DNA of 64,000 nt, from assembly GCA_038046385.1 (NCBI GenBank), contig JBBSWH010000006.1:64001-128000 (forward strand), written 5' to 3'. Below are positions 3,140 through 32,382 of this stretch, one piece after another. Within the stretch, counting starts at the first letter, position 1, and each line of letters starts with the position of its first letter. Position numbers and translations under genes: made by a program. Source of the stretch: Nanobdellota archaeon (lineage in GTDB: Archaea; Nanobdellota; Nanobdellia; Woesearchaeales; GW2011-AR4). The notes below the pieces were generated by a model. That model did no database searches. It saw only the letters and a program-made list of their open reading frames with translations, and was not told the DNA's origin.

Positions 3140-3186
3140 TAGTTGAAAGAGTAATATTTATATTCTAATGGTTTTGTTTTATTAGT

Positions 3187-4062
3187 ATGTTTCGCAAATT
3201 CTTCGCGTGGATTATAAGAACGCTAATGGCCATTATTCTTACTACTCTTATTTTCAGCTCTGTTCTGCCGAGTGTTGAAAAAATTATTCCCAGTGTAATT
3301 GGGAATGTTTTCATTCACGCATCTCCTGCTTCACAGCAAGATGTTGTAAACAAACTGTCAGGAGTATGCAAAGAAGCCGCTGGTGAAAAAGTTCCTGCAA
3401 ATATGGCAAACATAGCAGCAGTGTGCAAAGAATACAATGCCGGCAACATGAAAGGGGAAAAATTGTTTGCAGGTTTTGTTAACGTTATCATGGATACAGA
3501 GTTTAACCTTCCCGATTCACAAATCATCAAGAAATACAACAGTTTGCAGGATAATATAAATTCAAAAAAGCCTTTGCTGTTTGGAGTGCTGATTTTGTTG
3601 TTTGTTTTGCTTTATCTTGTCCTTATGAATTTCCGGCTTTTTATTGCTGCATTGGGGTCAATCTGCTTCAGCATGGGGTGGATGATAATGCTGCCCTATT
3701 TCATCATAGTTATTTATGACAATCTTATAGGAATAGACACTACAGCAATATTCTCTGCCATGATAAACAGCACCGGAATTGAGCCAGGCGCAATTATAAG
3801 CGTAATTTTGCTTGTTTTTATGGGTTTGTACAGCCCTGCGCTTATTTTGGTGGGCGTTATTTTGCTTGGAATCGGGATGACTGGATTTATTTACAGATTT
3901 ACTGCAAGAAAGAAGCAGGCTGCTGAAAAGAAAGATGACAAAAAGGCAAAGGATGAAGATAAGGAAGAAAGCGACAAAGAAACTAAAGAAGAAGAGCCTG
4001 ACGAAGAAGAAGCTGAAGAAGAAAAACCTAATAAAAAGAAATCAAAAAAGAAGAAAAATTAA
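3187..4062 (+). CDS. Hypothetical membrane protein with a charged low-complexity C-terminal tail
   Basis: 291-aa ORF, several TM segments, E/K-rich tail. Confidence 0.7.
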   Translation: MFRKFFAWIIRTLMAIILTTLIFSSVLPSVEKIIPSVIGNVFIHASPASQQDVVNKLSGVCKEAAGEKVPANMANIAAVCKEYNAGNMKGEKLFAGFVNVIMDTEFNLPDSQIIKKYNSLQDNINSKKPLLFGVLILLFVLLYLVLMNFRLFIAALGSICFSMGWMIMLPYFIIVIYDNLIGIDTTAIFSAMINSTGIEPGAIISVILLVFMGLYSPALILVGVILLGIGMTGFIYRFTARKKQAAEKKDDKKAKDEDKEESDKETKEEEPDEEEAEEEKPNKKKSKKKKN

Positions 4063-4962: not shown

Positions 4963-5075
4963 AGTTTTGCCATCGTTCGCATGTGTAAATAGGCGTTTAT
5001 TGCCAAAATTCCCATTGCAATTTCCTTTTGGCTAGCTACTTGATTAGAAGATGCTCACATAGTGATGGCAAAACT
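4963..5075. repeat. Dispersed palindromic element, copy 1
   Basis: AGTTTTGCCATC-GTTCGCAT...GCCAAAA-TTCCCATTGCAATTTCC-TTTTGGC...ATGCTCAC-ATAGT-GATGGCAAAACT. Confidence 0.9.
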
Positions 5076-5138
5076 GACATTTTCAACAAGCCTTCTTTGT
5101 CAGCAAACCTTAAAAACAAAATAGTGTTTCTTGAAGTT

Positions 5139-6497
5139 ATGGTTCCGCTCAGTGTTTCGCTTACTCATTATAAAAGAAAGGATATACAGGAAGAGATTGT
5201 GTATAATTCCATTGATAGGGAAATCGCTGCCAAGTTTGGGGAAAGCTTCGGGAAAAGGCCGGACATTCTGAGGAATCCAAGCGACATAATGGAGCTTGCA
5301 AAACAAGGCGTTACTTCTTTTCACGCTTCAGAAGAGCTTTGGAAAAATCCGCTGCAGATTGACACGTCAATGAAGAGGCACGAGCTTGATGCACTTCGTT
5401 CAGGCTGGGATTTGATAATAGACATTGACTGCACTGTTTTTGATTACTCAAAAATTGCAGCTGACCTTGTGATAAAAGCATTGAAATTCCATAAAGTAAA
5501 ATCCATATCGTGCAAGTTTTCAGGCAACAAGGGATTTCATATCGGAGTTCCTTTTGAGGTTTTTCCTGAAAAAGTGAAGAATGAAGACACAAAAAATATG
5601 TTTCCAGAAGCTCCAAAGAAGATTGCGCTGTACATAAAAAGCATGATAATGCCGGAATTCGGGATAAAAATTCTTGCGTTTGAGAAAAATGACATTGGAA
5701 AAGTTCTGGAGAAAACCGGCAAGGCTTCAAGCGAAGTTATTTACATCGAGAACGGGCAGAAAAAATTCAATCCGGAATCTATTTTGCAGATGGATACTTT
5801 GCTTATCTCGTCAAGACACCTTTACAGGATGCCTTATTCTCTGCACGAGAAATCCGGATTGGTGTCAATTCCTTTCAATCCTGAGAAAGTAATGCTGTTC
5901 CAGAAAGAGCTTGCACTTCCGAAGAATGTTAAAATCAGCTCCCACAGGTTTCTTGACAGAAAAAATGTTGAAAAGGATGAGGCAAAAAGGCTGTTTGTAG
6001 AGGCATTTGACTTTCATGTCAAGGAAGAATCGAATGTTGAAACGACAAAGAGAAAAGATTTTGAGGCGCCGGAGAACGCGCTGCCTGAAGAATTGTTTCC
6101 GCCCTGTGTTAAGCTCATACTGAACGGATTAGAAGACGGAAGAAAAAGAGCATTGCTTGTTTTAATCAATTATTTCACTTCAATCGGCTGGGATTATGAC
6201 GCGATTGAGAAAAAGCTTGTGGAATGGAACAAGAAAAACAAAGAGCCTATAAGGGATGTGTATCTGCTTGGGCAGTTAAGGTATCATAAGCAGATGCGAA
6301 AGAAAGTTCTTCCTCCAAACTGCAGCAACGAGATGTACATGCTGAATATGGGAGTTTGCAAGCCTGACAATTTCTGCCCAAAAATAAAGAATCCTGCGCA
6401 GTACAGCACAAGAAAGGCGTGGGGCATCAACCAAAGCGTGAAAAAGCCAAGGGCAAAGATGGTTGCAAAGAAAGACGACAATGCGAAAACTATATAA
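5139..6497 (+). CDS. priSL: Fused archaeal DNA primase (PriS catalytic domain plus PriL Fe-S domain)
   Basis: WDLIIDID, FSGNKGFH, RMPYSLH followed by FPPC...PPNC..C Cys cluster. Start set at ATG 5139 because the longer ORF start lies inside the repeat. Confidence 0.85.
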   Translation: MVPLSVSLTHYKRKDIQEEIVYNSIDREIAAKFGESFGKRPDILRNPSDIMELAKQGVTSFHASEELWKNPLQIDTSMKRHELDALRSGWDLIIDIDCTVFDYSKIAADLVIKALKFHKVKSISCKFSGNKGFHIGVPFEVFPEKVKNEDTKNMFPEAPKKIALYIKSMIMPEFGIKILAFEKNDIGKVLEKTGKASSEVIYIENGQKKFNPESILQMDTLLISSRHLYRMPYSLHEKSGLVSIPFNPEKVMLFQKELALPKNVKISSHRFLDRKNVEKDEAKRLFVEAFDFHVKEESNVETTKRKDFEAPENALPEELFPPCVKLILNGLEDGRKRALLVLINYFTSIGWDYDAIEKKLVEWNKKNKEPIRDVYLLGQLRYHKQMRKKVLPPNCSNEMYMLNMGVCKPDNFCPKIKNPAQYSTRKAWGINQSVKKPRAKMVAKKDDNAKTI

Positions 6498-8772: not shown

Positions 8773-10476
8773 CTAAAAAATGGATTTTAGCCACGCAATA
8801 ATTCTACCCAATAAAGACTGCTTGGTTTTTTGTACTTCAACACATAGATTGTTTACTAGATGTTTTTTTGCAGAACATGATAGGCAGTTAGGGGAATCAA
8901 TTGCCCCATTTTGGCATGAATCTTGTTTAGTTTTCCCTATAACTTCTTTTTTTATGCATGTATTTGCAACCAATTCATAACCTTCAGAGCAGGACTTACA
9001 ATCTGGAGGGTCAATCGCCCCATTCTGGCAAGTTGTCTTTGAATCTTTATTTCTTTTAGTGTTTTCATCTTTAATAAATCCCAGCATATATGCTTCCAAA
9101 CTGCATAAATGCGGTTTTTTGAAAAATTCTTCCCATTGGGCGGTGTATAAGATGCAGTTTCTCCATTGATAGTATCCTCCAGGCTCTCCAGCATAAGGGT
9201 ATATGTCAAATAATCCAAATGAATGGAGAGTTTCGTGTATCAAAACAGGAGAAAATGCTGTGGGGTCTATTTTATCTGAATACCCCCCCATAAGCACGTA
9301 TTCTCCAAAGTTTATGCCTGCTGAAACTGGAAGCTGGGGAAATTTTTTTGAAAGCGCAAATACAGCTTCCTGATCATTTTGGTCCTTAATAAAATAGTAA
9401 ATAATAGGATATCCCTGCAAACCGCAAGTTGTGGCAATTTTTTTAAATATCTGCTCTACTTCTTCTTTTTCCTTGATATCTTGAAGGTACTCGCTTCTTG
9501 TGTAGCCAGGACATTCTACTACATTCCAATTTAAAGAAAATTTACTTTTGCTTGCCCAAGCGTCTTTTTCATCTTTAAGCCATTGGTTTGCTCTTTCGGC
9601 TTCGGTCTTTAGCTGGTCAATAATTATTTTTCTTTGATTATCATCTATTTGATCTGTTACAAAAAGAGGGACTATAAGAGCATTGTAGGTATCGGATGAT
9701 AATACTTGATTGTCGGGTTTTAGGCATCTATTTTGAAAACATGACCCTTGTTGACAGTCTGAATCCGAAAAACATGATTGATATCCTGTATGAACGCCAA
9801 ATGGATAAAGAATACCATCAATACACTGAAAATTTTTTAAATTGTAAGTTCTTTCTCCGCAGATTGCAGTTGGCCGGGTAGGGTCATAGACTATAATGTT
9901 AAGGGATTTAGCTCCAAACCCCGCTGTTCTGACAAATATCCTGCCAAAATCTGTTTGATAATAATCTGATTTGAATTTAACTGTTGTTTTGACTTCTTCA
10001 TTAGGGTTAAGGTGGATGACTTTGTTTATCTGAACTATTTGTTGGTAGTCATTTGAAAACCCTGTAGGATTATAATCAAATGCTGCATCCATCAGGTTTA
10101 TGTCTACTACATTCTCTGCTTCAGATGTAAAAGAAAGCTCTACTTCGAAATCCGAACTGATTGGAACAGATTTTGGATAATCTGCTTTAATTTTTACAGT
10201 TGGGGTGAAAGAATATACACACTCATGTATGGGGGAGCAGTGAAGTCCGTTCTCGCAATCAGCTTCTGATTTACAGATTTTTGTAAATGACTCAAAAAAT
10301 TCCCCGTCAATGCATGCATGATCCAATGCAGATGTCCGGCAAAATCCGTCACAAACTACACCTTCTCCATTAAAACAAGTCTGCTGGGCAGAGACGCTGA
10401 TGGCGTAACCTAAAAAAAAGACTCCTAATGCCAAAATTAGAATTTTGTTTTTGAATCTTAATTCCAATTTGACCAT
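8773..10476 (-). CDS. Secreted Cys-rich putative zinc metalloprotease
   Basis: Signal peptide, HETLHSFGLFD (HExxHxxGxxD), Cys-rich modules, duplicated CQNGAID(P/S)PxC. Confidence 0.65.
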   Translation of the reverse strand: MVKLELRFKNKILILALGVFFLGYAISVSAQQTCFNGEGVVCDGFCRTSALDHACIDGEFFESFTKICKSEADCENGLHCSPIHECVYSFTPTVKIKADYPKSVPISSDFEVELSFTSEAENVVDINLMDAAFDYNPTGFSNDYQQIVQINKVIHLNPNEEVKTTVKFKSDYYQTDFGRIFVRTAGFGAKSLNIIVYDPTRPTAICGERTYNLKNFQCIDGILYPFGVHTGYQSCFSDSDCQQGSCFQNRCLKPDNQVLSSDTYNALIVPLFVTDQIDDNQRKIIIDQLKTEAERANQWLKDEKDAWASKSKFSLNWNVVECPGYTRSEYLQDIKEKEEVEQIFKKIATTCGLQGYPIIYYFIKDQNDQEAVFALSKKFPQLPVSAGINFGEYVLMGGYSDKIDPTAFSPVLIHETLHSFGLFDIYPYAGEPGGYYQWRNCILYTAQWEEFFKKPHLCSLEAYMLGFIKDENTKRNKDSKTTCQNGAIDPPDCKSCSEGYELVANTCIKKEVIGKTKQDSCQNGAIDSPNCLSCSAKKHLVNNLCVEVQKTKQSLLGRIIAWLKSIF

Positions 10477-15886: not shown

Positions 15887-17743
15887 TTATGCGACAAACT
15901 CCCCGTTTTTCAGTATCCAGTGCTTTGCGCCTTTTTTGCTTATTCCATAAACATCCAGCTTTTGCCTTGGTGCGTTAAAAACAATATCCATGTGGTATTC
16001 TGTTGATCTATCGGGTTCGTAGCCGGATCCAAGGGCTATGTGCATCATCCTTGCAATTTTCTCGTTGACAATAAGATAATCGCATAATTTTGCTTTTGGA
16101 TTGGTGTTGATTGCAAATTCCCCAATCCTTTCAAAATTTCTTTTCTTCATATCTATTATTTCCTTCGGCAGGCTTTTGTTTTTTTCTGACATTAGCAGCA
16201 TGTCCATTGATTCTTTTTTTCTTTTATTGATTTTCTGCAGAATATCCTTTGGTCCTGCAATTATCTTGTAGGAATCGCCGTAGCATTCTGTTATAATCGG
16301 ATTTTTTTCATCTAATTGGTAGCTTTGGTCGACGTGAACAACAACATCCCCCACAAATATGCCCTTTATGTATTCCGGCGTTACAAAGGCCTCTCCTCCG
16401 GGAATGTTACCCATGCATCCTGCCACTATCCCTGTCATTTTAAGGTATTCCTTGTTGATTTTTTCCCTAACATCTGTATCTGAACGCCTTACCCACCTTC
16501 TTGTGCCATCTGGCTTAACAAGGCCGACTTCAAGGTTTGTAACATATTTTTCTTTTGACTTTCCTTCAACATAGATAACATCACACTTGTCCATTATATC
16601 CTTTATTTTCTGGTTTCTTGCGCGTATGTCTGACCAGTCAACGAGATTTGTTTCAATGAAAATATCTATAGGAATTGTTTCTGTAAAAGCAACTCTTGCC
16701 ATGGGCTTTCTGTCATCATATTTTGTCTGCGGATAAAAGTCAAGCTTGTAAATCATCTGCCCCGGCGTATTCCAGCGCGTCTTTTTGTTTTTTGAAGGGT
16801 ATCCAATAAGTTCGCCGAACATGTGCTTTCCTGCATATCCTTTTGAGCTTACAGAAAATGAAAGGTCTATTGGCTTGAATCTCTTAAGATTTAACAATGA
16901 GGACAATTTATTGAATTTTTTGAAAACGGCCTCATCAACGTCCTTGCACAATTCGCATCCCAATAAAGTCGCTCTTAACTCTGAAACCCTTTCAGGCTGC
17001 TCAAGCATTGATTTCCTTCCTGTTGATGCGCTTAATGTTGGATTTGCATTTTCTTTTGCGGCCTGTGCCATTGCCCAGATTATGGAATATGCGTCAAGAT
17101 AATCCTCAAGCGGATGACCGATCATGCTTTCTGTAGGTATTAATGGGAAACCGATTCCTGCACGCTCACCTTTTTTTAATGCATAGACATCTCTCCACAA
17201 AATTCTGCTTGTTTCCATCAGCTCTTTCATTCTGTATTCTTTGAACCATTTTGTGCTGAAATTGAGGTTAAAATTACCTGTAAATTTTCCGTTCTTTGCC
17301 TCAAGAATAAAATCCGGCTTTTTGAATATTTTTTTGAAATCACCTTTTGCTTTTTTGTCAACTTCATTTATGAAATCAAGCAAAGATGATGTTTTGGTGT
17401 TTTTTTCTCCTTTTACTGCTTTATCGAAAATTTGCCAGACATCTTTTAATGCTTCCAATGCTTCTGAGCTATGCGAAGAAGCTTGTTGAGCTTTGCCACT
17501 CGAAGTGGAATTGTTCAGCTTTGCTGAACTTATGCTCAATTTTGCTTCTGGTTTTTTTCCCATGCCGATGCAACTGACATCATTTTTTAGCTCGTGCATT
17601 GCCATTGACAGCGGCGCTAGGGAGTAGAATGCTTCCTTGTCTGACAAATCAAAAAGTATCAAAAAATCTTTGTTTTTTGTTCCTTTAAGCTGCTTTTTGT
17701 AATTGACTACTGCAGAATCAAACTCTTTTTTGTCGTATTTCAT
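15887..17743 (-). CDS. M29-like (thermophilic metallo-) aminopeptidase carrying an in-frame 28-aa insertion
   Basis: NIPGGEAF, GEFAINTNP, EK..MHIALG, HMD motifs. Confidence 0.75.
   Translation of the reverse strand: MKYDKKEFDSAVVNYKKQLKGTKNKDFLILFDLSDKEAFYSLAPLSMAMHELKNDVSCIGMGKKPEAKLSISSAKLNNSTSSGKAQQASSHSSEALEALKDVWQIFDKAVKGEKNTKTSSLLDFINEVDKKAKGDFKKIFKKPDFILEAKNGKFTGNFNLNFSTKWFKEYRMKELMETSRILWRDVYALKKGERAGIGFPLIPTESMIGHPLEDYLDAYSIIWAMAQAAKENANPTLSASTGRKSMLEQPERVSELRATLLGCELCKDVDEAVFKKFNKLSSLLNLKRFKPIDLSFSVSSKGYAGKHMFGELIGYPSKNKKTRWNTPGQMIYKLDFYPQTKYDDRKPMARVAFTETIPIDIFIETNLVDWSDIRARNQKIKDIMDKCDVIYVEGKSKEKYVTNLEVGLVKPDGTRRWVRRSDTDVREKINKEYLKMTGIVAGCMGNIPGGEAFVTPEYIKGIFVGDVVVHVDQSYQLDEKNPIITECYGDSYKIIAGPKDILQKINKRKKESMDMLLMSEKNKSLPKEIIDMKKRNFERIGEFAINTNPKAKLCDYLIVNEKIARMMHIALGSGYEPDRSTEYHMDIVFNAPRQKLDVYGISKKGAKHWILKNGEFVA
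17459..17550. mobile_element. Palindromic 84-bp in-frame insertion flanked by an 8-bp direct repeat
   Basis: TGCTTCTG at 17459-17466 and 17543-17550; multiple internal hairpins. Confidence 0.65.
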
Positions 17744-23892: not shown

Positions 23893-24912
23893 TTAACCCA
23901 CTGTCTGGGCAAGGTGCTTTACAAGGATTTTTGTTTCCTTGCTGTCAAGAACATTGTACATCAATTTTACGCCTGCGACCTTTTCCAAATCAACTCTATC
24001 GCTTACTAAATCTGCTGTGCATGTGATTGTTCTTCTTCCATTTACAAGTGTTACAACGCCTTTCCAATCATTGTTAAGACCCCCGCATTTAAGGTTTGAG
24101 AATACCGGGTCAATAGGAACTTCTGTTATCTCTATTCCAACTTTGTTTTCAACTTCCCTTCTTGCTCTTGGATCGCGAGGGCATGCTGAATCAAAGCCGC
24201 TTGATGGCCTTCTCTCGTCCTGGCTCCAGAAAATGTCAACATTTCCGCTTAATACAATATCAAAACTGAATGAAACGCGGTCTTTTCCGACAACGGATTC
24301 CCTGAAATTAAGCACCTGAACCGGGGCTGATGAGCTGTATGAAACCCTTGACTGCGTTGGCCTGCAGAGGCCGCTGTCCCTTATGTTAATCATGTCCTTT
24401 AGAATGCATAGTTTTGTGTTTGACTGTGTCTCATAATAATAGCATGCGTCTGCCCTGAAAGTAAACTCTGTGTTGCCAGGAAACTGTGATGGAACAAAAT
24501 TATCATCGTCTTTTGGAAATGATACAAAAGTTGTTGTTCCTTCTATTATATTGCCTTCTGCATCCCTCTTTTTCGAATCAAGAATGTCGTCTGGCTGTGC
24601 ATCCCTTAAGGATTCAAAATCTTTTCCAAAATCAGAAGGATCAAATCCAACAAGATTGACGCGCATGTCGTTGCTGTCAATTGCATATTCTCCTTCATTT
24701 TTCAAGCTGACGATTGCGTTGAATGCAAATGACTGGTCGTCTGTGACTTCCGGAGGAGGAGAGTCTTTCTCAAAATTCATTGATACTCCGGCTGTGCCGC
24801 CTATAAAAGGTGTTCTTGGAGCGCTTCCTGCAGCTGCTCCTGATTGCTTGCACGATGACAAAACCAGGACTGAGATTATCAGCAAAGCGAGAATAAGGTA
24901 CTTTCTGTTCAT
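23893..24912 (-). CDS. Putative lipoprotein, paralog 3 of the cluster domain
   Basis: Lipobox-like LSSC; ACYYYET...SAPV...C...Y pattern shared with neighbours. Confidence 0.75.
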   Translation of the reverse strand: MNRKYLILALLIISVLVLSSCKQSGAAAGSAPRTPFIGGTAGVSMNFEKDSPPPEVTDDQSFAFNAIVSLKNEGEYAIDSNDMRVNLVGFDPSDFGKDFESLRDAQPDDILDSKKRDAEGNIIEGTTTFVSFPKDDDNFVPSQFPGNTEFTFRADACYYYETQSNTKLCILKDMINIRDSGLCRPTQSRVSYSSSAPVQVLNFRESVVGKDRVSFSFDIVLSGNVDIFWSQDERRPSSGFDSACPRDPRARREVENKVGIEITEVPIDPVFSNLKCGGLNNDWKGVVTLVNGRRTITCTADLVSDRVDLEKVAGVKLMYNVLDSKETKILVKHLAQTVG

Positions 24913-24965
24913 GCTGCCTCTTTTCATAGATGTTTTATTTTAATGTTGATATATAAAGCTTTCTG

Positions 24966-26015
24966 TTAGCTTGTTGATTCGAGCTTCACAAGCAAAGGAC
25001 GTTCGTCAATTGTCCTGTAGCCGTATGAGAGTCTTATCAGTAATGGGCTTGTGTAAGATGAAACTTTGTTGCTGTAGGAAGAATCTGACAATTCACATAT
25101 TACATATCCCTCGCCGTTTATCATCCTTATCAAGCCGCTTGAAGATTTTACGTTGTTGCTGCCTGCAGGCTCTCCTGTGAACGGGCCGCAGTCCAACGGG
25201 GTGTTGGCTAGCATTACAGAGTCCAATCTTACTTTATCAATATCTTCTCTGTCAAGTTTTTCCGTTCCTATTGGATTGCATTTTTCCAGTGATTTTGTAT
25301 CATCATTGGAATCTATCTTTAGAACATCTCCTTTTCCAAGGTTTCTTATTGTGATTTTAAACTGGGTTTTTCTGGCAAATGCCTGCTCCTCAATTGAAAC
25401 AACTGCAACTGGCGCTCCTTGGCTGGATAATGAAGTATCATGCACTTCACACACTTTTCTTTCGCCTGTTGTCGAGTAAGGGTTTGGATCGATGCAAACT
25501 GATGGGCCGGCAACGGTCTCGTAATAATAGCATGCTGTTGCCCTCAAGGTAGGCTCGTATCTTTCTACATTAAGGTTTGCGCTTTTTACAGTGCCAATAA
25601 AACTTAGAATGTCCTGTCCACCATTTGGATTGATGGTGCTTTTTCCTTCGACAGCCATCTTTGTCAAGTCACCATAATATGCAGATGCTGATGACTCTTT
25701 TGGCTTGATTTCTATTATGTTAGTATCGTATCCGCTTAAGTATACTTTTCCAAACTTCATGCTCCCATCTTCTGGCTGCGGATATGCTCCTTTGTTAAAG
25801 ACTTGAAGAACTATTGGAAAAGTATTTATTGTATCATCTCCTGTTTTCTCCACGTGTATGTCTATTGGCGGGTTGTTTGCAAGGAAATATGCATTAATTG
25901 CATCGGTTCCTGTCCTTATTTCTTCTAGGGATTTCTTAACATCTTTCTTGCCGCTGCATCCAGAAATAACAATTAATGCAATAAACAATGCCAGAACAAT
26001 GCTATTTAGCTTCAT
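24966..26015 (-). CDS. Putative lipoprotein, paralog 2
   Basis: Lipobox-like ISGC; ACYYYET..CIDP, QGAPV, YTSPLLIRLSYGY. Confidence 0.78.
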   Translation of the reverse strand: MKLNSIVLALFIALIVISGCSGKKDVKKSLEEIRTGTDAINAYFLANNPPIDIHVEKTGDDTINTFPIVLQVFNKGAYPQPEDGSMKFGKVYLSGYDTNIIEIKPKESSASAYYGDLTKMAVEGKSTINPNGGQDILSFIGTVKSANLNVERYEPTLRATACYYYETVAGPSVCIDPNPYSTTGERKVCEVHDTSLSSQGAPVAVVSIEEQAFARKTQFKITIRNLGKGDVLKIDSNDDTKSLEKCNPIGTEKLDREDIDKVRLDSVMLANTPLDCGPFTGEPAGSNNVKSSSGLIRMINGEGYVICELSDSSYSNKVSSYTSPLLIRLSYGYRTIDERPLLVKLESTS

Positions 26016-26200: not shown

Positions 26201-27238
26201 TCAATGCCTTAAAGGCTTCTGCAGCAAGAAGTTTGCAGTAACAGTTTGTATATATCCGTAATCCACTTCTATCCTCAATGGTGAAGTGTAAGCATCCAGG
26301 TTTCTTGGGACTGGCTGTGTGAATGTGCATCTTATGAAATCTTTGTTATCTCTAAATCTTAAGAACCCTTCAAGCTCATTTTGCGCAACTTCTTTTTCAG
26401 GACATTCTCCGTTTTTGTTTGGGCAGCACTGTAGCTGGACTTCTCCGTTTTTGCCGGAAGCGAATGCTTTTACAGAACCGACATTCCAGATGTTATCCTT
26501 TTGCATGTTTGTTGCTGCATTATCTGTTTTATCACAAACATTCTTATATTTTATTTTGTCAACGGGAATTCCGTTTGCTTTATTTTCTATGTAGATTAAA
26601 AACTGCGGCCTTATATTTTGGTTGTCAACTTCAGGAACCATAACCGGCTCTATTTTTGTTATTGCAATCGGAGCGCCTTGTCCTCCGGATAATGAAATGT
26701 CTTTTACTGCGCAGATTTTTTTGCCGGGCCTTAACCCGACAACATCGGGGTCTATGCACATTGTTGCGCTTAAAGTTGTCTTGTAAGGATAGCATAATGT
26801 TGCCGTTAACAATGAATTTTTTGATTCGCTCTGCTCTTCTAAATTTCCTGTTTTTGCTGTTGATGTGATTACAACTTCGTCACCGGCCTGATTAAAATTT
26901 GTTTTTCCAGCTATGCTGAATGCTACCTGGTTTTCGCTGGCCTGATATATTCCGTTGCTATCATCAAATGTTATTGATGGGATGTAATCTTTCTCAAATC
27001 CGATTGCTATTCTTCCTTCATTGTTCTGTATGTCATATGTGCCTGAATTCCTTATTTTTAGCCCGATAGGAAAAGCACTTTTTTCAAATACTTTTGCAGG
27101 AGGTGCGTTTGGAAGAAATTCTGCTATTAATCCAGAAGTTCCTGTGTAGACATTAACGGTCTTGCTTGTTGTGGATGTTCCGCAGGCTGCAAGCAAGAAT
27201 ACTAAAATAAAAATCAAAGCGAAATTTTTTTGTTTCAT
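26201..27238 (-). CDS. Putative lipoprotein, paralog 1
   Basis: Lipobox LAAC; LCYPYKT..CIDP, QGAPI, YTSPLRIEVDYGY. Confidence 0.78.
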   Translation of the reverse strand: MKQKNFALIFILVFLLAACGTSTTSKTVNVYTGTSGLIAEFLPNAPPAKVFEKSAFPIGLKIRNSGTYDIQNNEGRIAIGFEKDYIPSITFDDSNGIYQASENQVAFSIAGKTNFNQAGDEVVITSTAKTGNLEEQSESKNSLLTATLCYPYKTTLSATMCIDPDVVGLRPGKKICAVKDISLSGGQGAPIAITKIEPVMVPEVDNQNIRPQFLIYIENKANGIPVDKIKYKNVCDKTDNAATNMQKDNIWNVGSVKAFASGKNGEVQLQCCPNKNGECPEKEVAQNELEGFLRFRDNKDFIRCTFTQPVPRNLDAYTSPLRIEVDYGYIQTVTANFLLQKPLRH

Positions 27239-30200
27239 TTAATATCCCTGACCAGGTGGTGCGGTGCTTGTCTTGTGTCCTGACAATCCTATTCGCGCCC
27301 AGTCAAAATTTGGAGATGGGTCCCATTTTCCTTCTGTAGATGCCTGGAAATGTCCGAGAACATGCTCGTTGTCTATTTTAATTGATGAACGTCTGCTTGC
27401 AATGTCATTAATCAGGCTGCTTATTGAAGCGTATTGGGCATCTGTGAACTGCATATCTTTGGTTCCTAAATTTACTATTTCTATTCCGATAGATCTTGAA
27501 TTCCAATCTTCTGCGTGCCATGCATTTAGGCTTTCGTCAACAATATAGTATATTGCCCCATCCCTATCAATAATGTAATGAACCGACAATCCTCTGGTTT
27601 TCAGTGTGTTAAATGTTGTTTGTGCTGCGCTGTCTGCCGTGTGGTGCAGAATTATTCTATCTACTGCAACACTTAATCTTTGGCCTGAATTCAACTGCCC
27701 AAAATAAATATCAGAAACCGGAATGCCTGGAGTTGTTATTGATGCAGATACTTCTTTTGTGGAATCTGGAGGTGAATAAACTGATCCTGAACTAGCTGCC
27801 TGTTTATTTAATGCGTCATATGTTTTTAGAACATCTTCAACATAGTTATTATTCCCGGTTGCACCCCACCCGTTATATGCCCTTAAAGCTGCCTGCCAGC
27901 CTCCGTAGTATCTGCTTGTTGAGGTTCCTCCTGTAAATTCATATTCGCATTTGCTGTTTGTGCATCTTCCCATGCACTGTCGCGATGCGCAATAGTTTCT
28001 TGAGTGGAAAGGATGCTCACAATCTAATCCAGAACTACAGGCGCCCTGATTGAATAAGTTATATTTTGATTTTAATACTTTTATTCCACAATCGACATTA
28101 GATTCTGGATTTGTATTGAAATCATCTTTGCAGTTGGTTCCCTTTGCCGTGCCTCCTAGTATTTGCATAAGTCCGTAGGATGCATCATTTAGTTTTGGCT
28201 CTTGTCTTATTGCGTCCGGCTTCCATGATGACTCTTTTTCAATTATTGCTTTTGTTAATAGATAAGATACATCATTCTCCTGAGCCAAACGGTTTACCAT
28301 TGGGCTGTATTTTACTTCGTTTGCATTCTTAGAGTTAATGTATATGTTTGTTCTTACTGCTGTTTTTGTAACTGCAACTCCTGGCTCTGCTGCTGCTTCT
28401 GGAGTTGTCGGGGTTCCTTCATAAGACGGCAAAGTAGTGTCTGCTTTTTTTGAAGGATTTAGCTCGACAACAACATTAAATGTCTTGTCAAGATAGTAAT
28501 CGTATCTTGCTTTTATCCTGAAATATCTTGTTGTTATAGGAGTATTATCTAGAACTTTAGGGTCTATATCTAGTCTGCATCTGAATGTCTTGAATCTGTC
28601 AAAGTCTTTGTAATTTGTATCGTTTTTTATTAAACTTGTATCAAGCTGGTATCCGGTATAATCTTGACCGTTATCTGTGGTTTTTGTTTCTTCGTTCTTG
28701 AAAAGGGATTTGCACTCTTTCTGGCATTTTGCAAGGGATGATTCACAGTCCTTGCAGTCTGAACTGTCCTTAGCATTTTCTCTGCAAGATGCCTGCTGAC
28801 ACGGAAGCCCTACATTATTATCACAAGAGTCTGCGCAATTTTTATCAGTAAATGGCTTGAATTTAACAGGACCGCAATCGGAATTGCTGCCGTCTTCTGT
28901 CATTAGCTTGTCGTCTGTTGTAGCAACTTCAACTCCTTTTGGCAAAAGCAGTATCAATTCCCTTATTTGTTTTATTTTTCCTTCCCATTCTCCGACTGCC
29001 TTGCCGTCCTTATCTGTTATCTTGTTTCTGTTTTCAAGAGCTATTCCAAAGCTTGGCTTAAAGTCTTCTGCATCAGTGACGGTCAAAAGATAGCTTGAGT
29101 CTGTCTGCGGCATGTCGGTTGCTATTTTAACCGGTCCGTTGGTGTATATTGCAACCGGAGTTTTGTCTGTTATTCCAAATTCCTTGAGCGGATTAAGATT
29201 TTCCCTTATCATTGACCTATATCGGTCTTTGTCCATGAAGTAAACCTTTTGATATGCGTTTGTCTCAAAATTATATTGTGCATTGAGAGTTATTTTGCTG
29301 GTGCCTATTGGAAGGTTTGTGCCACGGCCTTGGCTAAATGTGCATTCAACATCTTTTTCCTCTGATGTGTAAACTGTAAACGGAAGGCTTGGGTAAAGTG
29401 TGTCGAGAGGCCCTGTCAATATTCTGTTGCTGCCCTCCCATCTTGCACAAATAAATTTAACATTTGCTGGATCACTTAAAGTTCTTGATTTTATCGTGCC
29501 CCATATCGTGACTGGCTCGTTGTCATAGAACTTCGGCTGTGCGACCCTTATACGATCAAAATAAACTCCAAGAGGTTCGTATTGGTTATTTTCCACATTG
29601 CCAAAGAATTGGTCGGAATAGCCGCCGGTGGCTGTGGATATCCCTACATTTATAGAAGTCTTAATCTGGGAAAAAATAGTATCGAAGAATGCTGCCATAT
29701 CAGGACGGCCTGTTTTTGGAGTGTAATCAAGAGTAGCTCCTCCATCACTGCCTTGATAGCTCCAAGCCTGCAAACTTAGTATTAGGATTAGTGTTACTAT
29801 AAAGATAAATGTTGTCAGGGCGTAAGCACTTTCTGTTTTTGCATAACAGTACCAAACTACAAAGATTACTAAAATAGGGATGAATTTTGTCCAGAGGTAA
29901 CTTGTGCTGTACAACCACCCGTATCCAAAAAAGTCTACTACCAGCAGCAGCATTATCAGTATGTAAGTGAATTCTTTGCTTTCCCTTTTTTGTATATAAG
30001 AAAAACCAAATGCCAGTATGAATATCATATGAACCCATGCCCTAAAATTATGCATCCATCCGTCATTGACCCAAAAAAAAGAGAAGAAGAAAATCAGAAC
30101 TAATCGAGTAAAAAATGTAGGTATTTGTGCGCCTGCTTTTTTGTCAAATCTGTATGCCAGGTAAGCAATTCCGATAAAAATGAGTGCTATCAGTATTATA

Positions 30201-30976
30201 ACAATTACACGAAGCAATCCGCCCGGTATGTTAATCGATAGATGGGCGCTAAACATATCAGGAAAATATTTTGATATGAGCTGGTTGCTTATCAGTATAA
30301 TAGCAAAACCAAGAAGAAAACTAATATGGTCTTTGTTTATTATGTCAAAAATCATGTTTATGTAAAAAAGTGCGAAAACAAATCCGGAAGTGAATATTGC
30401 CCACCATCTTAAATCCCATATTCCGTTTATCAAAGGTATTTCAAATCCTGCCCACGGCGGCCCAAGGGCATTTTGAAGGCTATTTCCTATTACAGGTATC
30501 CATTCCACAGGAAACATATCAAAAAACCATATCAGAAGCGCAACTGAGACAACTATTTTAGTTGAGTCGTTTGTTTTTAATCCTGTAACCAAACCATAAC
30601 TGATGAAAATGAGAAATACCGCAAATGTTATGATAAACATAGCCAATTTCATAAAGTTCCAGTACCAAGATGAAAAAATAAGAAGAACAATTGCAATTAT
30701 TATCAAAGATACAGTATGACTGCTTGATTTAAGCTCTATGGTCGGAATATTAATATTGAAAAGTCCAGAACCTTTTCCCCTTGCTTCTTTCGGCTCGTCG
30801 GATGAATCCTCTTCTGTATCTTTATTTCTTAATTGATTTTTTTTCTTTTCTATTCTTGCCTCTCTCTCATCATCTTTGATTCTTTGTCTTGCTTCTTCTT
30901 CTAAAAGAGCATCTTCTCTAGTTTCTTCTGTATCATCAACCCTATTTCTTCCCCTTATCCTATCAATTATTCCCAT
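27239..30976 (-). CDS. Large polytopic membrane protein with cluster domain, SLT lytic transglycosylase and amidase_2 domains
   Basis: About 10 TM segments; AIIEKESS, YGLMQI, AYNG (SLT); IILHHTA, SVHYIIDRDG, AWHA, NSRSIGIE, VLGH, KWDP (amidase_2). Confidence 0.85.
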   Translation of the reverse strand: MGIIDRIRGRNRVDDTEETREDALLEEEARQRIKDDEREARIEKKKNQLRNKDTEEDSSDEPKEARGKGSGLFNINIPTIELKSSSHTVSLIIIAIVLLIFSSWYWNFMKLAMFIITFAVFLIFISYGLVTGLKTNDSTKIVVSVALLIWFFDMFPVEWIPVIGNSLQNALGPPWAGFEIPLINGIWDLRWWAIFTSGFVFALFYINMIFDIINKDHISFLLGFAIILISNQLISKYFPDMFSAHLSINIPGGLLRVIVIILIALIFIGIAYLAYRFDKKAGAQIPTFFTRLVLIFFFSFFWVNDGWMHNFRAWVHMIFILAFGFSYIQKRESKEFTYILIMLLLVVDFFGYGWLYSTSYLWTKFIPILVIFVVWYCYAKTESAYALTTFIFIVTLILILSLQAWSYQGSDGGATLDYTPKTGRPDMAAFFDTIFSQIKTSINVGISTATGGYSDQFFGNVENNQYEPLGVYFDRIRVAQPKFYDNEPVTIWGTIKSRTLSDPANVKFICARWEGSNRILTGPLDTLYPSLPFTVYTSEEKDVECTFSQGRGTNLPIGTSKITLNAQYNFETNAYQKVYFMDKDRYRSMIRENLNPLKEFGITDKTPVAIYTNGPVKIATDMPQTDSSYLLTVTDAEDFKPSFGIALENRNKITDKDGKAVGEWEGKIKQIRELILLLPKGVEVATTDDKLMTEDGSNSDCGPVKFKPFTDKNCADSCDNNVGLPCQQASCRENAKDSSDCKDCESSLAKCQKECKSLFKNEETKTTDNGQDYTGYQLDTSLIKNDTNYKDFDRFKTFRCRLDIDPKVLDNTPITTRYFRIKARYDYYLDKTFNVVVELNPSKKADTTLPSYEGTPTTPEAAAEPGVAVTKTAVRTNIYINSKNANEVKYSPMVNRLAQENDVSYLLTKAIIEKESSWKPDAIRQEPKLNDASYGLMQILGGTAKGTNCKDDFNTNPESNVDCGIKVLKSKYNLFNQGACSSGLDCEHPFHSRNYCASRQCMGRCTNSKCEYEFTGGTSTSRYYGGWQAALRAYNGWGATGNNNYVEDVLKTYDALNKQAASSGSVYSPPDSTKEVSASITTPGIPVSDIYFGQLNSGQRLSVAVDRIILHHTADSAAQTTFNTLKTRGLSVHYIIDRDGAIYYIVDESLNAWHAEDWNSRSIGIEIVNLGTKDMQFTDAQYASISSLINDIASRRSSIKIDNEHVLGHFQASTEGKWDPSPNFDWARIGLSGHKTSTAPPGQGY

Positions 30977-31218: not shown

Positions 31219-32382
31219 TTACTGGACTTCTACCCTTAACTGCGCCACTTCAACATCCTCAAGCGGCTCAAGGGTTATGTAGTTGTTGCCAGATGTTAAT
31301 CTGTTTGCAATGCTCTTTGAAAAGGTTCCCTTTGATGTTTCAACTGTCTCAAGCTTGCCGTTTATATCCATCTTAAGCCTTTTCTGATCCTGCGAGTTGG
31401 TAAATTTCATGGAAACAAGAACGTCTGTGCCGTCCTTTATTTCATTATATAGTTCTGGGCTTACATCAAAGAAATATGTCTTTGCCTTTGTATCCTTAAA
31501 CTCCAATGATGCGCTTATCTGCTCAACGCTGTAACTTCCCTTGTTGGTCTTGAATATTATGTTGTTGGAGCCTTCATTAAGCAAGGATTTTGGAACACTT
31601 TGCTTATATGGCCTGTCGCAGACCGGGACTGATGAAAATAATTTCTTGTCATTTACGAATATGTCCAATAATCCCAATTCATTTATGGAGCTGCAGTATG
31701 GAGTGAACTTCAAAGTTACTTTATCCAGGCTTGCAAATTCTGATTCCGTTATCTCAAACACGTTATTTGACTCTTGCTTTGTCCTATCAGTAATATCGCC
31801 GATAATTCTTACATTCTCAAATCCATATTCGTTTGTTGTCCAAAATTTTAATCCGACTGAAGATACGCTGAATTCGAGCGTGTTTGTTTTTGACAAAAGT
31901 CCTTTGTCGAGCTTGACTGGCTCTGTTATTGAGTTTGTTATTTCATTCTCAAAAATTATCTGATCGTTTAGCTTTACTGTAAGGACTCCCTGTTTTTTCT
32001 TTGCTGTAAATGCCAAAACAACATTATCTGTGTTTTCTGGATCTGTAATTTCAAAATCCATTGTATAAACCTTTGTGTCAAAAAGGCCGTTTCTTACTAT
32101 AAATGGGTTGAATTTTTTGATTTCAACGGCGTTAGTTGTCTCAATGAGGAAGATATCAGGTATTTTCTTGTCGTTCTCAAGATTTCCTTGCGTGTTTAAT
32201 GTTCCTGGAACAACATCAAGCAATAATTTTGACTGCTGAGCTGCGTTTTGCTGGTCTGTCTCCCCTGAAAGCAGCTTTTCCTTGTCTGCTGTTGGAAGAA
32301 ACACGATATAAAGAATAATCAGCCCAGAAACGATAGATACCAGAAGAGCGGCATTTATTCCTCCTTGGGCTTTCTTGTACAT
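31219..32382 (-). CDS. Secreted protein with a class III (pilin-like) signal peptide and three repeated beta-rich domains
   Basis: MYKKAQ followed by a hydrophobic helix; repeated L.I..N...(L)..G.N.(I/L).F pattern. Confidence 0.7.
   Translation of the reverse strand: MYKKAQGGINAALLVSIVSGLIILYIVFLPTADKEKLLSGETDQQNAAQQSKLLLDVVPGTLNTQGNLENDKKIPDIFLIETTNAVEIKKFNPFIVRNGLFDTKVYTMDFEITDPENTDNVVLAFTAKKKQGVLTVKLNDQIIFENEITNSITEPVKLDKGLLSKTNTLEFSVSSVGLKFWTTNEYGFENVRIIGDITDRTKQESNNVFEITESEFASLDKVTLKFTPYCSSINELGLLDIFVNDKKLFSSVPVCDRPYKQSVPKSLLNEGSNNIIFKTNKGSYSVEQISASLEFKDTKAKTYFFDVSPELYNEIKDGTDVLVSMKFTNSQDQKRLKMDINGKLETVETSKGTFSKSIANRLTSGNNYITLEPLEDVEVAQLRVEVQ

What the first reader, a model, noticed from the sequence alone, without database searches (positions are those of the whole stretch)
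27239..30976. Archaeal membrane protein carrying two peptidoglycan-hydrolase domains (lytic transglycosylase and amidase)
Seen in sequence: a 1245-aa protein with a charged N-terminus, about 10 TM helices, a Cys-containing domain and a P/T/A linker. After the linker come an SLT/GH23-like module with intact motifs (AIIEKESS catalytic Glu near 28232, YGLMQI near 28165, AYNG near 27875) and an amidase_2/PGRP-like module with Zn-ligand residues (LHHT near 27640, VLGH, KWDP; also AWHA and NSRSIGIE). Established: these families cut the glycan backbone and the MurNAc-L-Ala bond of bacterial murein, which archaea do not make. Inference: this small-genome, probably symbiotic archaeon displays a membrane-anchored two-enzyme murein cutter, to attach to, penetrate or feed on bacterial cells.
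Basis: partly seen in the sequence, partly recalled or inferred. Interest (0 to 1): 0.9.

Follow-up and report, generated by a model that had tools for sequence, protein, structure and literature searches.

The report
Membrane-tethered murein cutter of Woesearchaeota
A small groundwater archaeon carries a large membrane-anchored surface protein ending in two enzymes that cut bacterial cell wall; proteins of this kind are already described for this group, but its anchor, conserved gene neighbourhood and swappable enzyme tip had not been laid out.

Summary
ORF 27239-30976 (-) encodes 1245 aa. The context is archaeal: a 1.28-Mb genome, 85% complete, with no murein synthesis found. The fusion is not an assembly artefact.

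The idea is not new. Large murein-like lytic transglycosylase proteins of Woese- and Pacearchaeota, read as tools against bacteria, are in print (Castelle 2021, Vigneron 2022, Strock 2025).

What I add:
- The enzymes sit on a lineage-specific scaffold of 11 TM helices plus a tandem beta-sandwich ectodomain with no known whole fold.
- The scaffold is single-copy in 60 of 70 genomes of the family.
- It lies in a five-gene operon of fixed order, seen whole in 20 of 44 related loci.
- The C-terminal enzyme is swapped in place among SLT, glucosaminidase, amidase, M23 and phage-tail lysozyme. The only substrate these share is murein.
- The amidase matches archaeal pilin-like amidases more closely than any bacterial one.

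Most likely this is an outward-facing, contact-range murein cutter. Activity, topology and the bacterial partner remain untested.

The parts
31219..32382 (-). First gene of the operon ('up387', 387 aa): N-terminal hydrophobic anchor followed by a beta-rich region. No family assigned.
   Evidence: ORF. No Pfam or NCBIfam family above cut-off. Found directly upstream of the scaffold gene in related loci, median 58% identity over 33 loci.
27239..30976 (-). The 1245-aa protein P0001 (stop codon at 27239-27241).
30716..30976 (-). Residues 1-87: highly charged N-terminal region, taken to be cytoplasmic.
   Evidence: 19 K/R and 23 D/E, no hydrophobic segment. BLAST-detectable in 16 of 92 homologues.
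29759..30715 (-). Residues 88-406: membrane block of 11 helices. The conserved D153, W307, H316, D348, Y352 and P367 lie in the outer half of helices or in outer loops.
   Evidence: Hydropathy. AlphaFold model, pLDDT 85.9. Conservation mapped on the helices. No PDB or BFVD fold match.
28433..29758 (-). Residues 407-848: conserved ectodomain of two beta-sandwiches and a helical hairpin. It is the most widely shared part of the family.
   Evidence: Model. Shared by 90 of 92 homologues. Foldseek finds only Ig-like adhesin or integrin pieces, TM-score 0.12 or less.
28703..28876 (-). Residues 701-758: Cys-rich helical hairpin inside the ectodomain (C701, C714, C718, C726, C731, C741, C744, C751, C755).
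   Evidence: Cys positions. Helices 624-643 and 651-671 in model numbering. These Cys are invariant or nearly so in A3.
28337..28432 (-). Residues 849-880: P/T/A-rich linker. This is the junction at which the C-terminal enzymes are exchanged between relatives.
   Evidence: Sequence. Similarity between P0011 and P0031 ends at the scaffold's end.
27827..28336 (-). Residues 881-1050: SLT/GH23 lytic transglycosylase module with Glu915-Ser916, GLMQ 935-938 and AYNG 1033-1036, plus a Cys-rich insertion.
   Evidence: Pfam SLT 45.3 bits against a cut-off of 21.3. Motifs. Weak alignment to MltC covers the E-S and GLMQ motifs.
27731..27826 (-). Residues 1051-1082: second linker, S/P/T-rich.
   Evidence: Sequence. 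Bridged by independent contigs.
27242..27730 (-). Residues 1083-1245: Amidase_2 (N-acetylmuramoyl-L-alanine amidase) module, with a His in LHHT 1110-1113, E1166, H1209, K1217 and D1219.
   Evidence: Pfam 97.6 bits. PDB AmpDh2 2.1e-14 and AmpD 2.9e-12. 59% identical to a second amidase in the same genome.
26201..27238 (-). lipoA (345 aa): signal peptide with a lipobox-like Cys. Its start codon directly abuts the stop codon of P0001.
   Evidence: Orthologue directly downstream of the scaffold gene in related loci. Paralogue of lipoB and lipoC (hhalign probability 99.6-100%).
24966..26015 (-). lipoB (349 aa): paralogous lipoprotein-like protein.
23893..24927 (-). lipoC (344 aa): the most conserved paralogue. 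Modelled as a tandem beta-sandwich.
   Evidence: AlphaFold pLDDT 93.3. Foldseek gives only generic Ig-like matches, TM-score 0.2 or less.

Best explanation
P0001 is an envelope protein of a Woesearchaeota-type DPANN archaeon. An 11-helix membrane block holds a disulfide-rich tandem beta-sandwich ectodomain outside the cell. Two flexible linkers carry a GH23 lytic transglycosylase and then an Amidase_2 N-acetylmuramoyl-L-alanine amidase. The enzymes stay tethered to the cell, so they can act only on murein within reach of the archaeal surface. That means the wall of a bacterium in contact, most plausibly one without an outer membrane. One enzyme cuts the glycan strand and the other strips the stem peptide, which would open the wall locally. 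The gene is the second in a vertically inherited five-gene operon (anchor protein, scaffold, three paralogous lipoproteins), which I read as a lineage-specific surface module. Its enzyme tip is exchanged by recombination at the linker, presumably tracking different bacterial walls. Shown here: domain identities, intact catalytic residues, archaeal context, no murein synthesis found, conserved synteny, cassette swapping. Inferred: outward topology, action on bacteria in contact, and the purpose.
For: Enzymes:
- Pfam SLT and Amidase_2 both score above cut-off.
- H, E, H, K and D of the amidase align to AmpDh2 and AmpD.
- E-S, GLMQ and AYNG are present, and Glu915 is shared by 38 of 45 rows of A3.

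Topology:
- 11 helices follow an 87-residue charged N-terminus with no signal peptide.
- 20 of 21 Cys lie in the part predicted to be outside.

The substrate is foreign:
- The 85%-complete genome gave no hit for Transpeptidase, FtsW/RodA or Transgly.
- Its only Mur-ligase hit is FolC, at 371 bits.

Family:
- 90 of 92 homologues share the ectodomain.
- Among the 91 members scanned, Pfam finds SLT in 46, Glucosaminidase in 11, Amidase_2 in 3, Phage_lysozyme2 in 1 and Peptidase_M23 in 1. Murein is the only substrate these families have in common.

Swapping:
- P0011 (SLT) and P0031 (glucosaminidase) are 60% identical over residues 14-858 and 29-847, and unalignable after that.
- Enzyme type shows no phylogenetic signal on the scaffold tree: 12 changes observed, against a shuffled mean of 13.1 and range 11-14.

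Core and vertical inheritance:
- A scaffold match is found in 60 of 70 genomes of the GTDB family, in 17 of 19 high-quality genomes and in 12 of 12 genera, mostly as one copy (the tally includes one unpublished genome, G356).
- 20 of 44 loci hold all five genes in the same order between Pelota/AcsA and RFC/Cas4-like, and no locus shows another order.

Evolutionary rate, in the 14 loci that hold all seven proteins (median identity): RFC 85%, Pelota 68%, lipoC 65%, up387 58%, lipoB 50%, lipoA 40%, scaffold 36%.

Not an artefact. GC content is flat at 0.39 across the gene.
Against: - No activity, localisation or partner data exist.
The GH23 fold therefore rests on the Pfam profile. The best single-sequence PDB match to the SLT part is weak (MltC, E 0.24).
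- No Pfam cell-wall-binding domain is present.
- K/R counts in the short internal loops barely discriminate the two sides. With the model's helix ends the count is 1 in against 2 out. With hydropathy segments it is about 10 in against 5 out. Topology therefore rests mainly on helix parity and the N-terminus.
- Some relatives seem to lack any enzyme. In L041 the next gene starts 29 nt after the scaffold match. Many same-order genomes have 500-790-aa frames that match only the ectodomain. The scaffold therefore has a function that does not need murein hydrolysis.
- A tethered enzyme could not reach the murein of a diderm bacterium without a breach of the outer membrane.
Confidence: 0.7

Rival explanations
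1. Scavenging rather than attack. The tethered enzymes digest murein debris or shed muropeptides at the cell surface, so that sugars and amino acids are released close to the archaeon's transporters.
For: The genome is small and presumably auxotrophic. Tethering keeps products near the cell. One GH3 gene shows weak NagZ-like similarity, 62.8 bits against a cut-off of 207. Published work raises peptidoglycan from dead cells as an amino-acid source for Pacearchaeota (PMC11537232 passages).
Against: No AnmK, although it is needed to use the 1,6-anhydro-MurNAc products of a lytic transglycosylase. No LdcA/Peptidase_S66. The GH3 is far below the NagZ cut-off. A freely secreted enzyme would harvest debris better than a tethered one. 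Fast sequence turnover and cassette swapping fit an interface with living, varying targets. The genome is 85% complete, so absences are provisional.
Confidence: 0.2
2. The five-gene module is primarily an envelope or cell-cell bridge machine in which the 11-TM block does work of its own, as a channel, transporter or membrane-embedded enzyme. On this reading the murein hydrolases are accessories that clear a path, as specialised lytic transglycosylases do for bacterial secretion systems and pili.
For: Conserved polar residues of the membrane block (D153, H316, D348, Y352, W307) all lie in the outer half of helices or in outer loops. Enzyme-less scaffold homologues exist in the same order. The operon is fixed and near-core. 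The scaffold family is large: 781 representative clusters at E of 0.001 or better, 261 at 1e-30 or better.
Against: No ATPase, secretin-like or pilus-assembly gene lies in the operon. The membrane block matches no known fold or family, so any activity is conjecture.
Confidence: 0.15
3. The enzymes remodel a wall polymer of the archaeon itself, either murein-like or pseudomurein-like.
For: Nothing direct. In bacteria, membrane-bound lytic transglycosylases and AmpDh2/AmiD-type amidases are housekeeping autolysins (PDB names).
Against: No Transpeptidase, SEDS or Transgly family hit. The single Mur-ligase-family gene is FolC, and the pseudomurein ligase models score only 22-34 bits against cut-offs of 550-610. 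The alternative cassettes (GH73, M23, phage tail lysozyme) are all murein-specific families.
Confidence: 0.04
4. The fusion is an assembly chimera or bacterial contamination.
For: None found.
Against: The same protein, 1244/1245 identical, lies on a separate 131,816-bp contig, and the exact sequence is held by three sources. Contigs of run X3 (another sample) and run X4 (another study) bridge both the scaffold/SLT and SLT/amidase junctions with no differences, and X7 bridges the first. Flanking genes are archaeal and syntenic. Contamination is estimated at 0.41%.
Confidence: 0.01

Closest known systems
Large murein-like lytic transglycosylase proteins of Woesearchaeota and Pacearchaeota (fam00969 of Castelle et al. 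2021, PMC8204110; AR20 and Lake A MAGs in Vigneron et al. 2022, PMC9723730; ODZ MAGs, PMC10936187)
   Same: Same lineage, same GH23/SLT domain, large and predicted extracellular. The published inference is also the same: binding or degrading bacterial walls, with possible episymbiosis or predation on bacteria (passages read).
   Different: Those papers describe a domain hit on large proteins (up to 3000 aa). In the passages I read they mention no membrane scaffold, no added amidase, no five-gene operon and no swapping of the enzyme. I could not check whether P0001's family is fam00969, because supplements are closed. In one search the SLT-only matches in 2000-3000-aa frames of other families of the class look like a different architecture.
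Modular secreted peptidoglycan hydrolases of archaea (Strock et al. 2025, PMC12352652)
   Same: Archaeal proteins with bacterial-type murein hydrolase domains, prominent in Nanoarchaeota and read as anti-bacterial. Domain shuffling is noted (sections 6 and 14 read).
   Different: Their definition requires a Pfam cell-wall-binding domain, which P0001 lacks. Their set is patchy, plasmid-biased and secreted. This one is chromosomal, syntenic, near-core in its family and membrane-tethered.
AmpDh2 / AmpDh3 / AmiD / AmpD Amidase_2 enzymes of Gram-negative bacteria (PDB 4bj4, 4bxd, 2bh7, 1j3g)
   Same: Same fold family by sequence, with zinc-binding and catalytic residues aligned.
   Different: P0001 scores only 65.6 bits against the AmpD equivalog cut-off of 143. 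Here the amidase is a C-terminal module of an archaeal surface protein. Its nearest relatives are archaeal 330-390-aa amidases at 43-69% identity. The first named bacterial hit listed is at 39%.
Membrane-anchored two-enzyme wall hydrolases of Gram-positive conjugation systems and virion-associated lysins of phage tails (recalled from the literature, not searched here)
   Same: Works alike: two murein-cleaving activities on one tethered polypeptide open a wall locally at a point of contact. One family member (P0015) carries the Phage_lysozyme2 tail-lysozyme domain in the same position.
   Different: No homology of the scaffold to them was found. The producer has no murein of its own. No DNA-transfer or virion genes lie in the operon.
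Polymorphic toxin loci with exchangeable C-terminal domains (recalled)
   Same: A conserved N-terminal delivery part with a variable C-terminal enzymatic tip exchanged at a linker.
   Different: The tips here are wall hydrolases rather than intracellular toxins. No immunity genes are evident, which fits a producer that has no murein.

Membership tests
SLT / GH23 lytic transglycosylase (Pfam PF01464) | Profile score above the curated gathering cut-off | tested here: met
   45.3 bits against 21.3, residues 894-977, profile positions 3-85 of 117. 49.3 bits in the six-frame genome search.
SLT / GH23 lytic transglycosylase (Pfam PF01464) | Catalytic Glu in the E-S motif, plus GLMQ and AYNxG motifs (motif names recalled) | tested here: met
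   E915-S916, G935-L-M-Q938 and A1033-Y-N-G1036. The E-S and GLMQ motifs align to the same motifs of MltC.
SLT / GH23 lytic transglycosylase (Pfam PF01464) | Lysozyme-like alpha-helical fold of the whole module, including the part after the Cys-rich insertion | not tested
The best PDB sequence match is only E 0.24.
Amidase_2 / PGRP N-acetylmuramoyl-L-alanine amidase (Pfam PF01510) | Profile score above cut-off over the full domain | tested here: met
   97.6 bits against 26, profile positions 4-131 of 131.
Amidase_2 / PGRP N-acetylmuramoyl-L-alanine amidase (Pfam PF01510) | Zinc ligands His, His, Asp and catalytic Glu and Lys (the roles are recalled; the alignment was made here) | tested here: met
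   A His in LHHT aligns to the H of AmpDh2's LHYT. SIGIE aligns to SIGIE. H1209, K1217 and D1219 align to AmpD chain residues 154, 162 and 164.
AmpD equivalog (NCBIfam NF008758) | Score above the equivalog cut-off | tested here: not met
   65.6 bits against 143. Same superfamily, but not an AmpD orthologue.
Modular archaeal PGH as defined by Strock et al. 2025 | At least one catalytic and at least one cell-wall-binding Pfam domain | tested here: not met
   Two catalytic domains and no binding domain at E up to 0.1. The definition was read.
DPANN large lytic-transglycosylase protein family (fam00969, Castelle 2021) | Membership of that protein cluster | not testable with these tools
   Family lists are in supplementary tables, which are closed. 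Lineage and SLT domain agree.
Scaffold family defined here (11-TM block plus tandem beta-sandwich ectodomain) | Full-length similarity of residues 88-848, and position in the up387-scaffold-lipoA-lipoB-lipoC operon | tested here: met
   90 of 92 homologues share the ectodomain and 74 of 92 the TM block. Operon order is kept in the related loci. 781 representative clusters at E of 0.001 or better.
Murein or pseudomurein producer (for the self-wall rival) | PBP transpeptidase, SEDS polymerase, glycosyltransferase 51, Mur or pMur ligases | tested here: not met
   No hits. The only Mur-ligase-family gene is FolC. The genome is 85.1% complete.

The most novel reading that the evidence does not exclude
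The five-gene operon may encode a lineage-defining contact organ of Woesearchaeales. In this reading the 11-TM block has its own conserved outward-facing D/H/D site, and together with an anchor protein and three lipoproteins it docks the archaeon on bacteria. An exchangeable murein-cutting tip then opens the wall. This would make bacteria, not archaea, the regular hosts of a whole DPANN family. The type of cassette (GH23, GH73, amidase, M23, tail lysozyme) would be a readable predictor of host wall type.
Probability: 0.15. Interest if true: 0.8.

Novelty: new variant of a known kind. Interest (0 to 1): 0.55.

Why it matters
All cultivated DPANN archaea live on other archaea. Whether the very abundant Woesearchaeota of groundwater depend on bacteria is an open question, argued so far from single domain hits.

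This locus shows that the murein-cutting domain is not a sporadic acquisition. It is the variable tip of a single-copy, syntenic, fast-evolving surface module present in most genomes of the family. That gives concrete handles:
- Catalytically dead enzyme tips or ectodomains could serve as probes to fish for the bacterial partner.
- The cassette types could be tested as predictors of host wall chemistry.
- There is now a defined set of five proteins to look for at contact sites by cryo-ET or proteomics.

The locus also marks a class of archaeal murein hydrolases that the published survey of modular enzymes would miss by design, because they carry no cell-wall-binding domain.

Tried and rejected
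1. My early idea that the ectodomain of P0001 is a paralogue of the three downstream lipoproteins. The MAFFT alignment looked suggestive, but profile-profile comparison gives probabilities of 0.3-3.6%. Rejected at the sequence level. Both are tandem beta-sandwiches in the models, but I could not superpose them.

2. Fold assignment of the scaffold. Foldseek against the PDB and against BFVD returned only generic Ig-like pieces, with TM-score normalised by query length of 0.12 or less. A PDB profile search with A3 hit only low-complexity charged segments of ion channels. The ESM Atlas returned hypothetical archaeal clusters at scores below 0.9. The lipoC fold search gave integrin legs, MSCRAMM adhesins and the AglB C-terminal domain at TM-score 0.2 or less.

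3. Complex prediction on the scaffold ectodomain with lipoA returned 'no answer' (score 0.00). This is not evidence either way.

4. Expression. No RNA holder is listed among the 15 runs, which says nothing about expression.

5. Rfam and tRNA scans of the window found nothing.

7. Literature searches for the specific architecture found only the general reports cited. I found no paper describing the TM scaffold, the operon or the cassette swapping. Supplementary tables that might list this family are closed.

8. A class-wide count with profile A2 (91 of 301 genomes) mixes scaffold hits with SLT-only hits, because the profile includes SLT columns. I therefore do not use it as a prevalence figure for the scaffold.

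9. The tree labels came from the precomputed Pfam column, which left 43 of 91 rows unlabelled. A live scan of 8 unlabelled members shows SLT as best hit in all 8: three at E of 1.6e-4 or better and just above cut-off, five weaker (E 0.0012-0.15) and below it. Most unlabelled tips are therefore probably divergent SLT. The swap count mainly reflects repeated replacement of SLT by glucosaminidase.

10. P0002, the nearest relative, ends inside its SLT domain and may be truncated, so I cannot date the gain of the amidase. More generally, SLT plus Amidase_2 in 1 of 91 members is a lower bound, because many members come from short contigs.

Full report
**The observation**

The minus-strand ORF 27239..30976 is open for 1245 codons from its first ATG. 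Pfam recognises two domains above their curated cut-offs:
- SLT (PF01464) at residues 894-977: E 7.7e-12, 45.3 bits against a cut-off of 21.3.
- Amidase_2 (PF01510) at residues 1104-1222: E 9.6e-28, 97.6 bits against a cut-off of 26.

- EKESS 913-917, with Glu915 at window 28232-28234
- YGLMQI 934-939
- AYNGWG 1033-1038
- LHHT 1110-1113
- AWHA 1152-1155
- SIGIE 1162-1166
- VLGH 1206-1209
- KWDP 1217-1220

Against solved structures, the C-terminal 397 residues match AmpDh2 (4bj4, 2.1e-14), AmpD (1j3g, 2.9e-12), AmiD, AmpDh3 and T7 lysozyme. In those alignments H1209, K1217 and D1219 fall on AmpD chain residues 154, 162 and 164. The histidine of LHHT falls on the H of AmpDh2's LHYT. That these are the zinc ligands and catalytic residues is my recollection of the AmpD literature. 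The alignment itself is a tool result.

The SLT part alone matches a solved structure only weakly (MltC, E 0.24), but that alignment covers the E-S and GLMQ motifs. I did not fold the C-terminal module, so the GH23 fold rests on the profile match.

**Anatomy**

Residues 1-87 are extremely charged (19 K/R, 23 D/E) and have no hydrophobic segment.

Residues 88-406 form 11 long helices in an AlphaFold model built on 91 sequences (mean pLDDT 85.9). My hydropathy scan had found ten above threshold and an eleventh just below it.

Residues 407-848 are two beta-sandwiches with a helical hairpin studded with conserved cysteines. Twenty of the 21 Cys lie after residue 500.

A P/T/A-rich linker, the SLT module with a Cys-rich insertion, a second S/P/T linker and the amidase follow.

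Three things place the ectodomain and both enzymes outside: an odd number of helices, an N-terminus that cannot plausibly be exported, and a disulfide-rich tail. This is an inference. The K/R bias of the short internal loops is weak, at about 10 against 5 with hydropathy segments and 1 against 2 with the model's longer helices.

**Organism and integrity of the locus**

The window is archaeal throughout. It holds Hef, a fused primase, Hjc, FEN1, PAN, RFC small subunit, Pelota, SecY and a ribosomal-protein operon with S4e.

The genome has 1.283 Mb in 19 contigs, is 85.1% complete and has 0.41% contamination. GC content is flat at about 0.39 across the gene.

Three results rule out a chimera:
- The exact protein is held by three sources, and a 1244/1245-identical copy lies on a different 131,816-bp contig.
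- The gene occurs in groundwater metagenome runs of five coded studies.
- Contigs of X3 (a sample not marked as a possible source) and X4 (another study) bridge both the scaffold/SLT linker and the SLT/amidase linker with no differences. X7 (a third study) bridges the first.

**No murein of its own**

Six-frame family searches of the genome found no Transpeptidase, no FtsW/RodA/SpoVE and no Transgly. The only Mur_ligase_M hit is FolC, at 371 bits against a cut-off of 163. Pseudomurein ligase models score 22-34 bits against cut-offs of 550-610. With 85% completeness these absences are provisional.

SLT occurs once in the genome, in this gene. Amidase_2 occurs twice.

**The family**

A search with the whole protein returned 92 other proteins of 684-2179 aa. 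Those with names are called Woesearchaeota, Nanoarchaeota or Nanoarchaeia.
- 90 of the 92 share the ectodomain.
- 74 share the membrane block.
- 52 share a BLAST-detectable SLT region.
- Only 3 share the amidase.

A live Pfam scan of 91 members (the query included, the two non-scaffold hits left out) finds SLT in 46, Glucosaminidase in 11, Amidase_2 in 3, Phage_lysozyme2 in 1, Peptidase_M23 in 1, Lysozyme_like in 2 and fn3 in 3. Eight members without a precomputed domain all have SLT as best hit, three just above the cut-off and five below it.

SLT plus Amidase_2 occurs only in the query. P0004 combines Glucosaminidase with Amidase_2. The only substrate these alternative tips have in common is murein. 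I take this as the strongest sequence-level argument for what the protein acts on.

An exhaustive search with the scaffold alone (residues 88-848) finds 781 representative clusters at E of 0.001 or better and 261 at 1e-30 or better.

**Swapping in place**

On a FastTree tree of the ectodomain (91 rows), the enzyme label needs 12 changes, against a mean of 13.1 (range 11-14) for 200 label shuffles. Enzyme type therefore shows no phylogenetic signal. The labels were incomplete, as noted under Tried and rejected.

P0011 (SLT) and P0031 (glucosaminidase) sit in one well-supported clade. They are 60% identical over residues 14-858 and 29-847, and unalignable after that. The exchange point is the linker.

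The amidase of the query is closest to 330-390-aa archaeal proteins, at 43-69% identity among the best hits. The named ones are from Woesearchaeota. The first named bacterial hit listed is 39% identical. The amidase is also 59% identical to the second amidase of the same genome. It was therefore probably recruited from the lineage's own gene pool rather than directly from a bacterium.

**The operon**

In 44 loci fetched from species-representative genomes, the scaffold gene is preceded by an orthologue of the 387-aa gene at 31219-32382. It is followed by orthologues of the three ORFs at 26201-27238, 24966-26015 and 23893-24927.
- Twenty loci hold all five in this order.
- The rest are mostly cut by contig ends and hold a subset in the same order.
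- In L032 no lipoC was found, and in L044 no up387, although DNA was available.
- No locus shows another order.

Pelota and an acetyl-CoA synthetase flank the block on one side, and RFC and a Cas4-like nuclease on the other.

The three downstream proteins are paralogues of each other (hhalign probability 99.6-100%). They begin with a signal peptide ending in a lipobox-like Cys. lipoC models as a tandem beta-sandwich (pLDDT 93.3).

In the 14 loci that hold all seven proteins, median identity to the window falls in this order: RFC 85%, Pelota 68%, lipoC 65%, up387 58%, lipoB 50%, lipoA 40%, scaffold 36%.

Within the GTDB family of the window, 60 of 70 genomes have a scaffold match. This covers 17 of 19 high-quality genomes and 12 of 12 genera, mostly with one copy, and identity is only 38-47% even within the genus (the tally includes one unpublished genome, G356).

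So this is a vertically inherited, near-core, fast-evolving surface module, not a sporadic acquisition.

**How it most likely works**

I read the protein as an outward-facing, membrane-tethered pair of murein hydrolases with a reach of a few tens of nanometres at most. It can only act on a wall that touches the archaeon.

The lytic transglycosylase would cut MurNAc-GlcNAc bonds. The amidase would remove stem peptides and so undo cross-links. Together they would open a local hole. These are the established chemistries of the two families, not measurements.

Tethering, fast divergence and cassette exchange fit an interface with living, varying bacterial partners better than bulk feeding. The genome also lacks AnmK and LdcA, which argues against use of anhydro-muropeptides. 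Its one GH3 is far below the NagZ cut-off.

A tethered enzyme cannot pass an outer membrane. I therefore infer monoderm or outer-membrane-less targets, but nothing here identifies them.

**What does not fit neatly**

Some relatives appear to lack an enzyme tip. In L041 the next gene starts 29 nt after the scaffold match. Many genomes of the same order have 500-790-aa frames matching only the ectodomain.

The membrane block conserves D153, W307, H316, D348, Y352 and P367, all in the outer half of helices or in outer loops. That is more than an anchor would need.

Neither the block nor the ectodomain matches any solved or viral predicted fold beyond generic Ig-like pieces, nor any Pfam or NCBIfam family. 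The scaffold therefore has a function of its own that I cannot name. A test for binding between the ectodomain and lipoA gave no verdict.

**Comparison with what is known**

The central idea is published.
- Castelle et al. [quoted passage not shown] They propose attachment to bacterial walls (abstract and passages).
- Vigneron et al. 2022 report 'large lytic murein transglycosylase' genes in five Woesearchaeotal MAGs and propose predation on bacteria (passages).
- Further reports are PMC10936187 and PMC11537232.
- Strock et al. 2025 survey archaeal murein hydrolases and show killing of a bacterium by two haloarchaeal enzymes. Their definition requires a cell-wall-binding domain, which this protein lacks. 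Their set is patchy and plasmid-biased, the opposite of this locus (sections 6 and 14).

In four searches I found no description of the 11-TM scaffold, the five-gene operon, the in-place exchange of enzyme tips, or the SLT-plus-amidase combination. Supplementary tables that might list the family are closed.

**Verdict**

It is not new in kind. The protein is a new variant within the known class of DPANN murein-hydrolase surface proteins. The added value is that the class now has a defined scaffold, operon and mode of diversification.

Noticed in passing
Outside the window: G000:C6:167938-168297; L003:781-1950 (+): A second Amidase_2 gene (389 aa) in the same genome, 59% identical to P0001's amidase. 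Its N-terminus reads 'KKG' followed by a hydrophobic stretch, like an archaeal type IV pilin signal (my reading of the sequence, not a prediction tool). The ORFs on both sides (L003:285-803 and 1953-3269) have similar N-termini. Most of the 58 closest stand-alone amidases of 228-663 aa start the same way. This suggests murein amidases displayed on pilin-like stalks.
   Followed up: partly
Genomes of other families of the same class, e.g. G183:C3:46572-46988, G203:C5:22819-23286: SLT-only matches sit inside open frames of 2000-3000 aa. This may be the 'up to 3,000 aa' family of Castelle 2021 and looks like a different architecture from the scaffold described here.
   Followed up: no
L041:491-2104 and L042:4956-6359; same-order genomes: Scaffold homologues with little or no room for a C-terminal enzyme. 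In L041 lipoA starts 29 nt after the scaffold match. Many 500-790-aa frames match only the ectodomain. The scaffold seems older than its murein-cutting tip.
   Followed up: partly
window 29759-30715 (residues 88-406): The conserved residues of the membrane block (D153, W307, H316, D348, Y352, P367, each in at least 80% of 91 rows) all lie in the outer half of helices or in outer loops. This hints at an outward-facing site of unknown function.
   Followed up: partly
window 5028-6497 (+): One 489-aa ORF matches both the DNA primase small subunit (residues 142-284) and the large subunit (313-454), so it appears to be a fused PriS-PriL primase.
   Followed up: no
window 15887-17743 (-) and 8773-10476 (-): Two large ORFs (618 and 567 aa) with no Pfam family at E of 0.001 or better.
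   Followed up: no
window 1-64000: No tRNA, rRNA or any Rfam family at gathering threshold in 64 kb.
   Followed up: no
Loci L006, L008, L014, L015 and others: Many related MAG records are titled 'uncultured Methanosarcinales archaeon', although their gene content and synteny match the Woesearchaeota-titled records (RFC 80-87% identical, same operon). The titles look like default labels rather than taxonomy.
   Followed up: no
L017:9526-12387: RFC appears as two separate tblastn matches about 1.6 kb apart (residues 128-319 at 80% and 1-230 at 57%). This could be a second paralogue or an insertion in the gene.
   Followed up: no
L035:12727-13431 region and L042:8775-10980: Extra or enlarged lipoprotein paralogues in some relatives: a 1028-aa lipoB-like ORF in L035 and two lipoC copies in L035 and L042. 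The lipoprotein set expands in some lineages.
   Followed up: no
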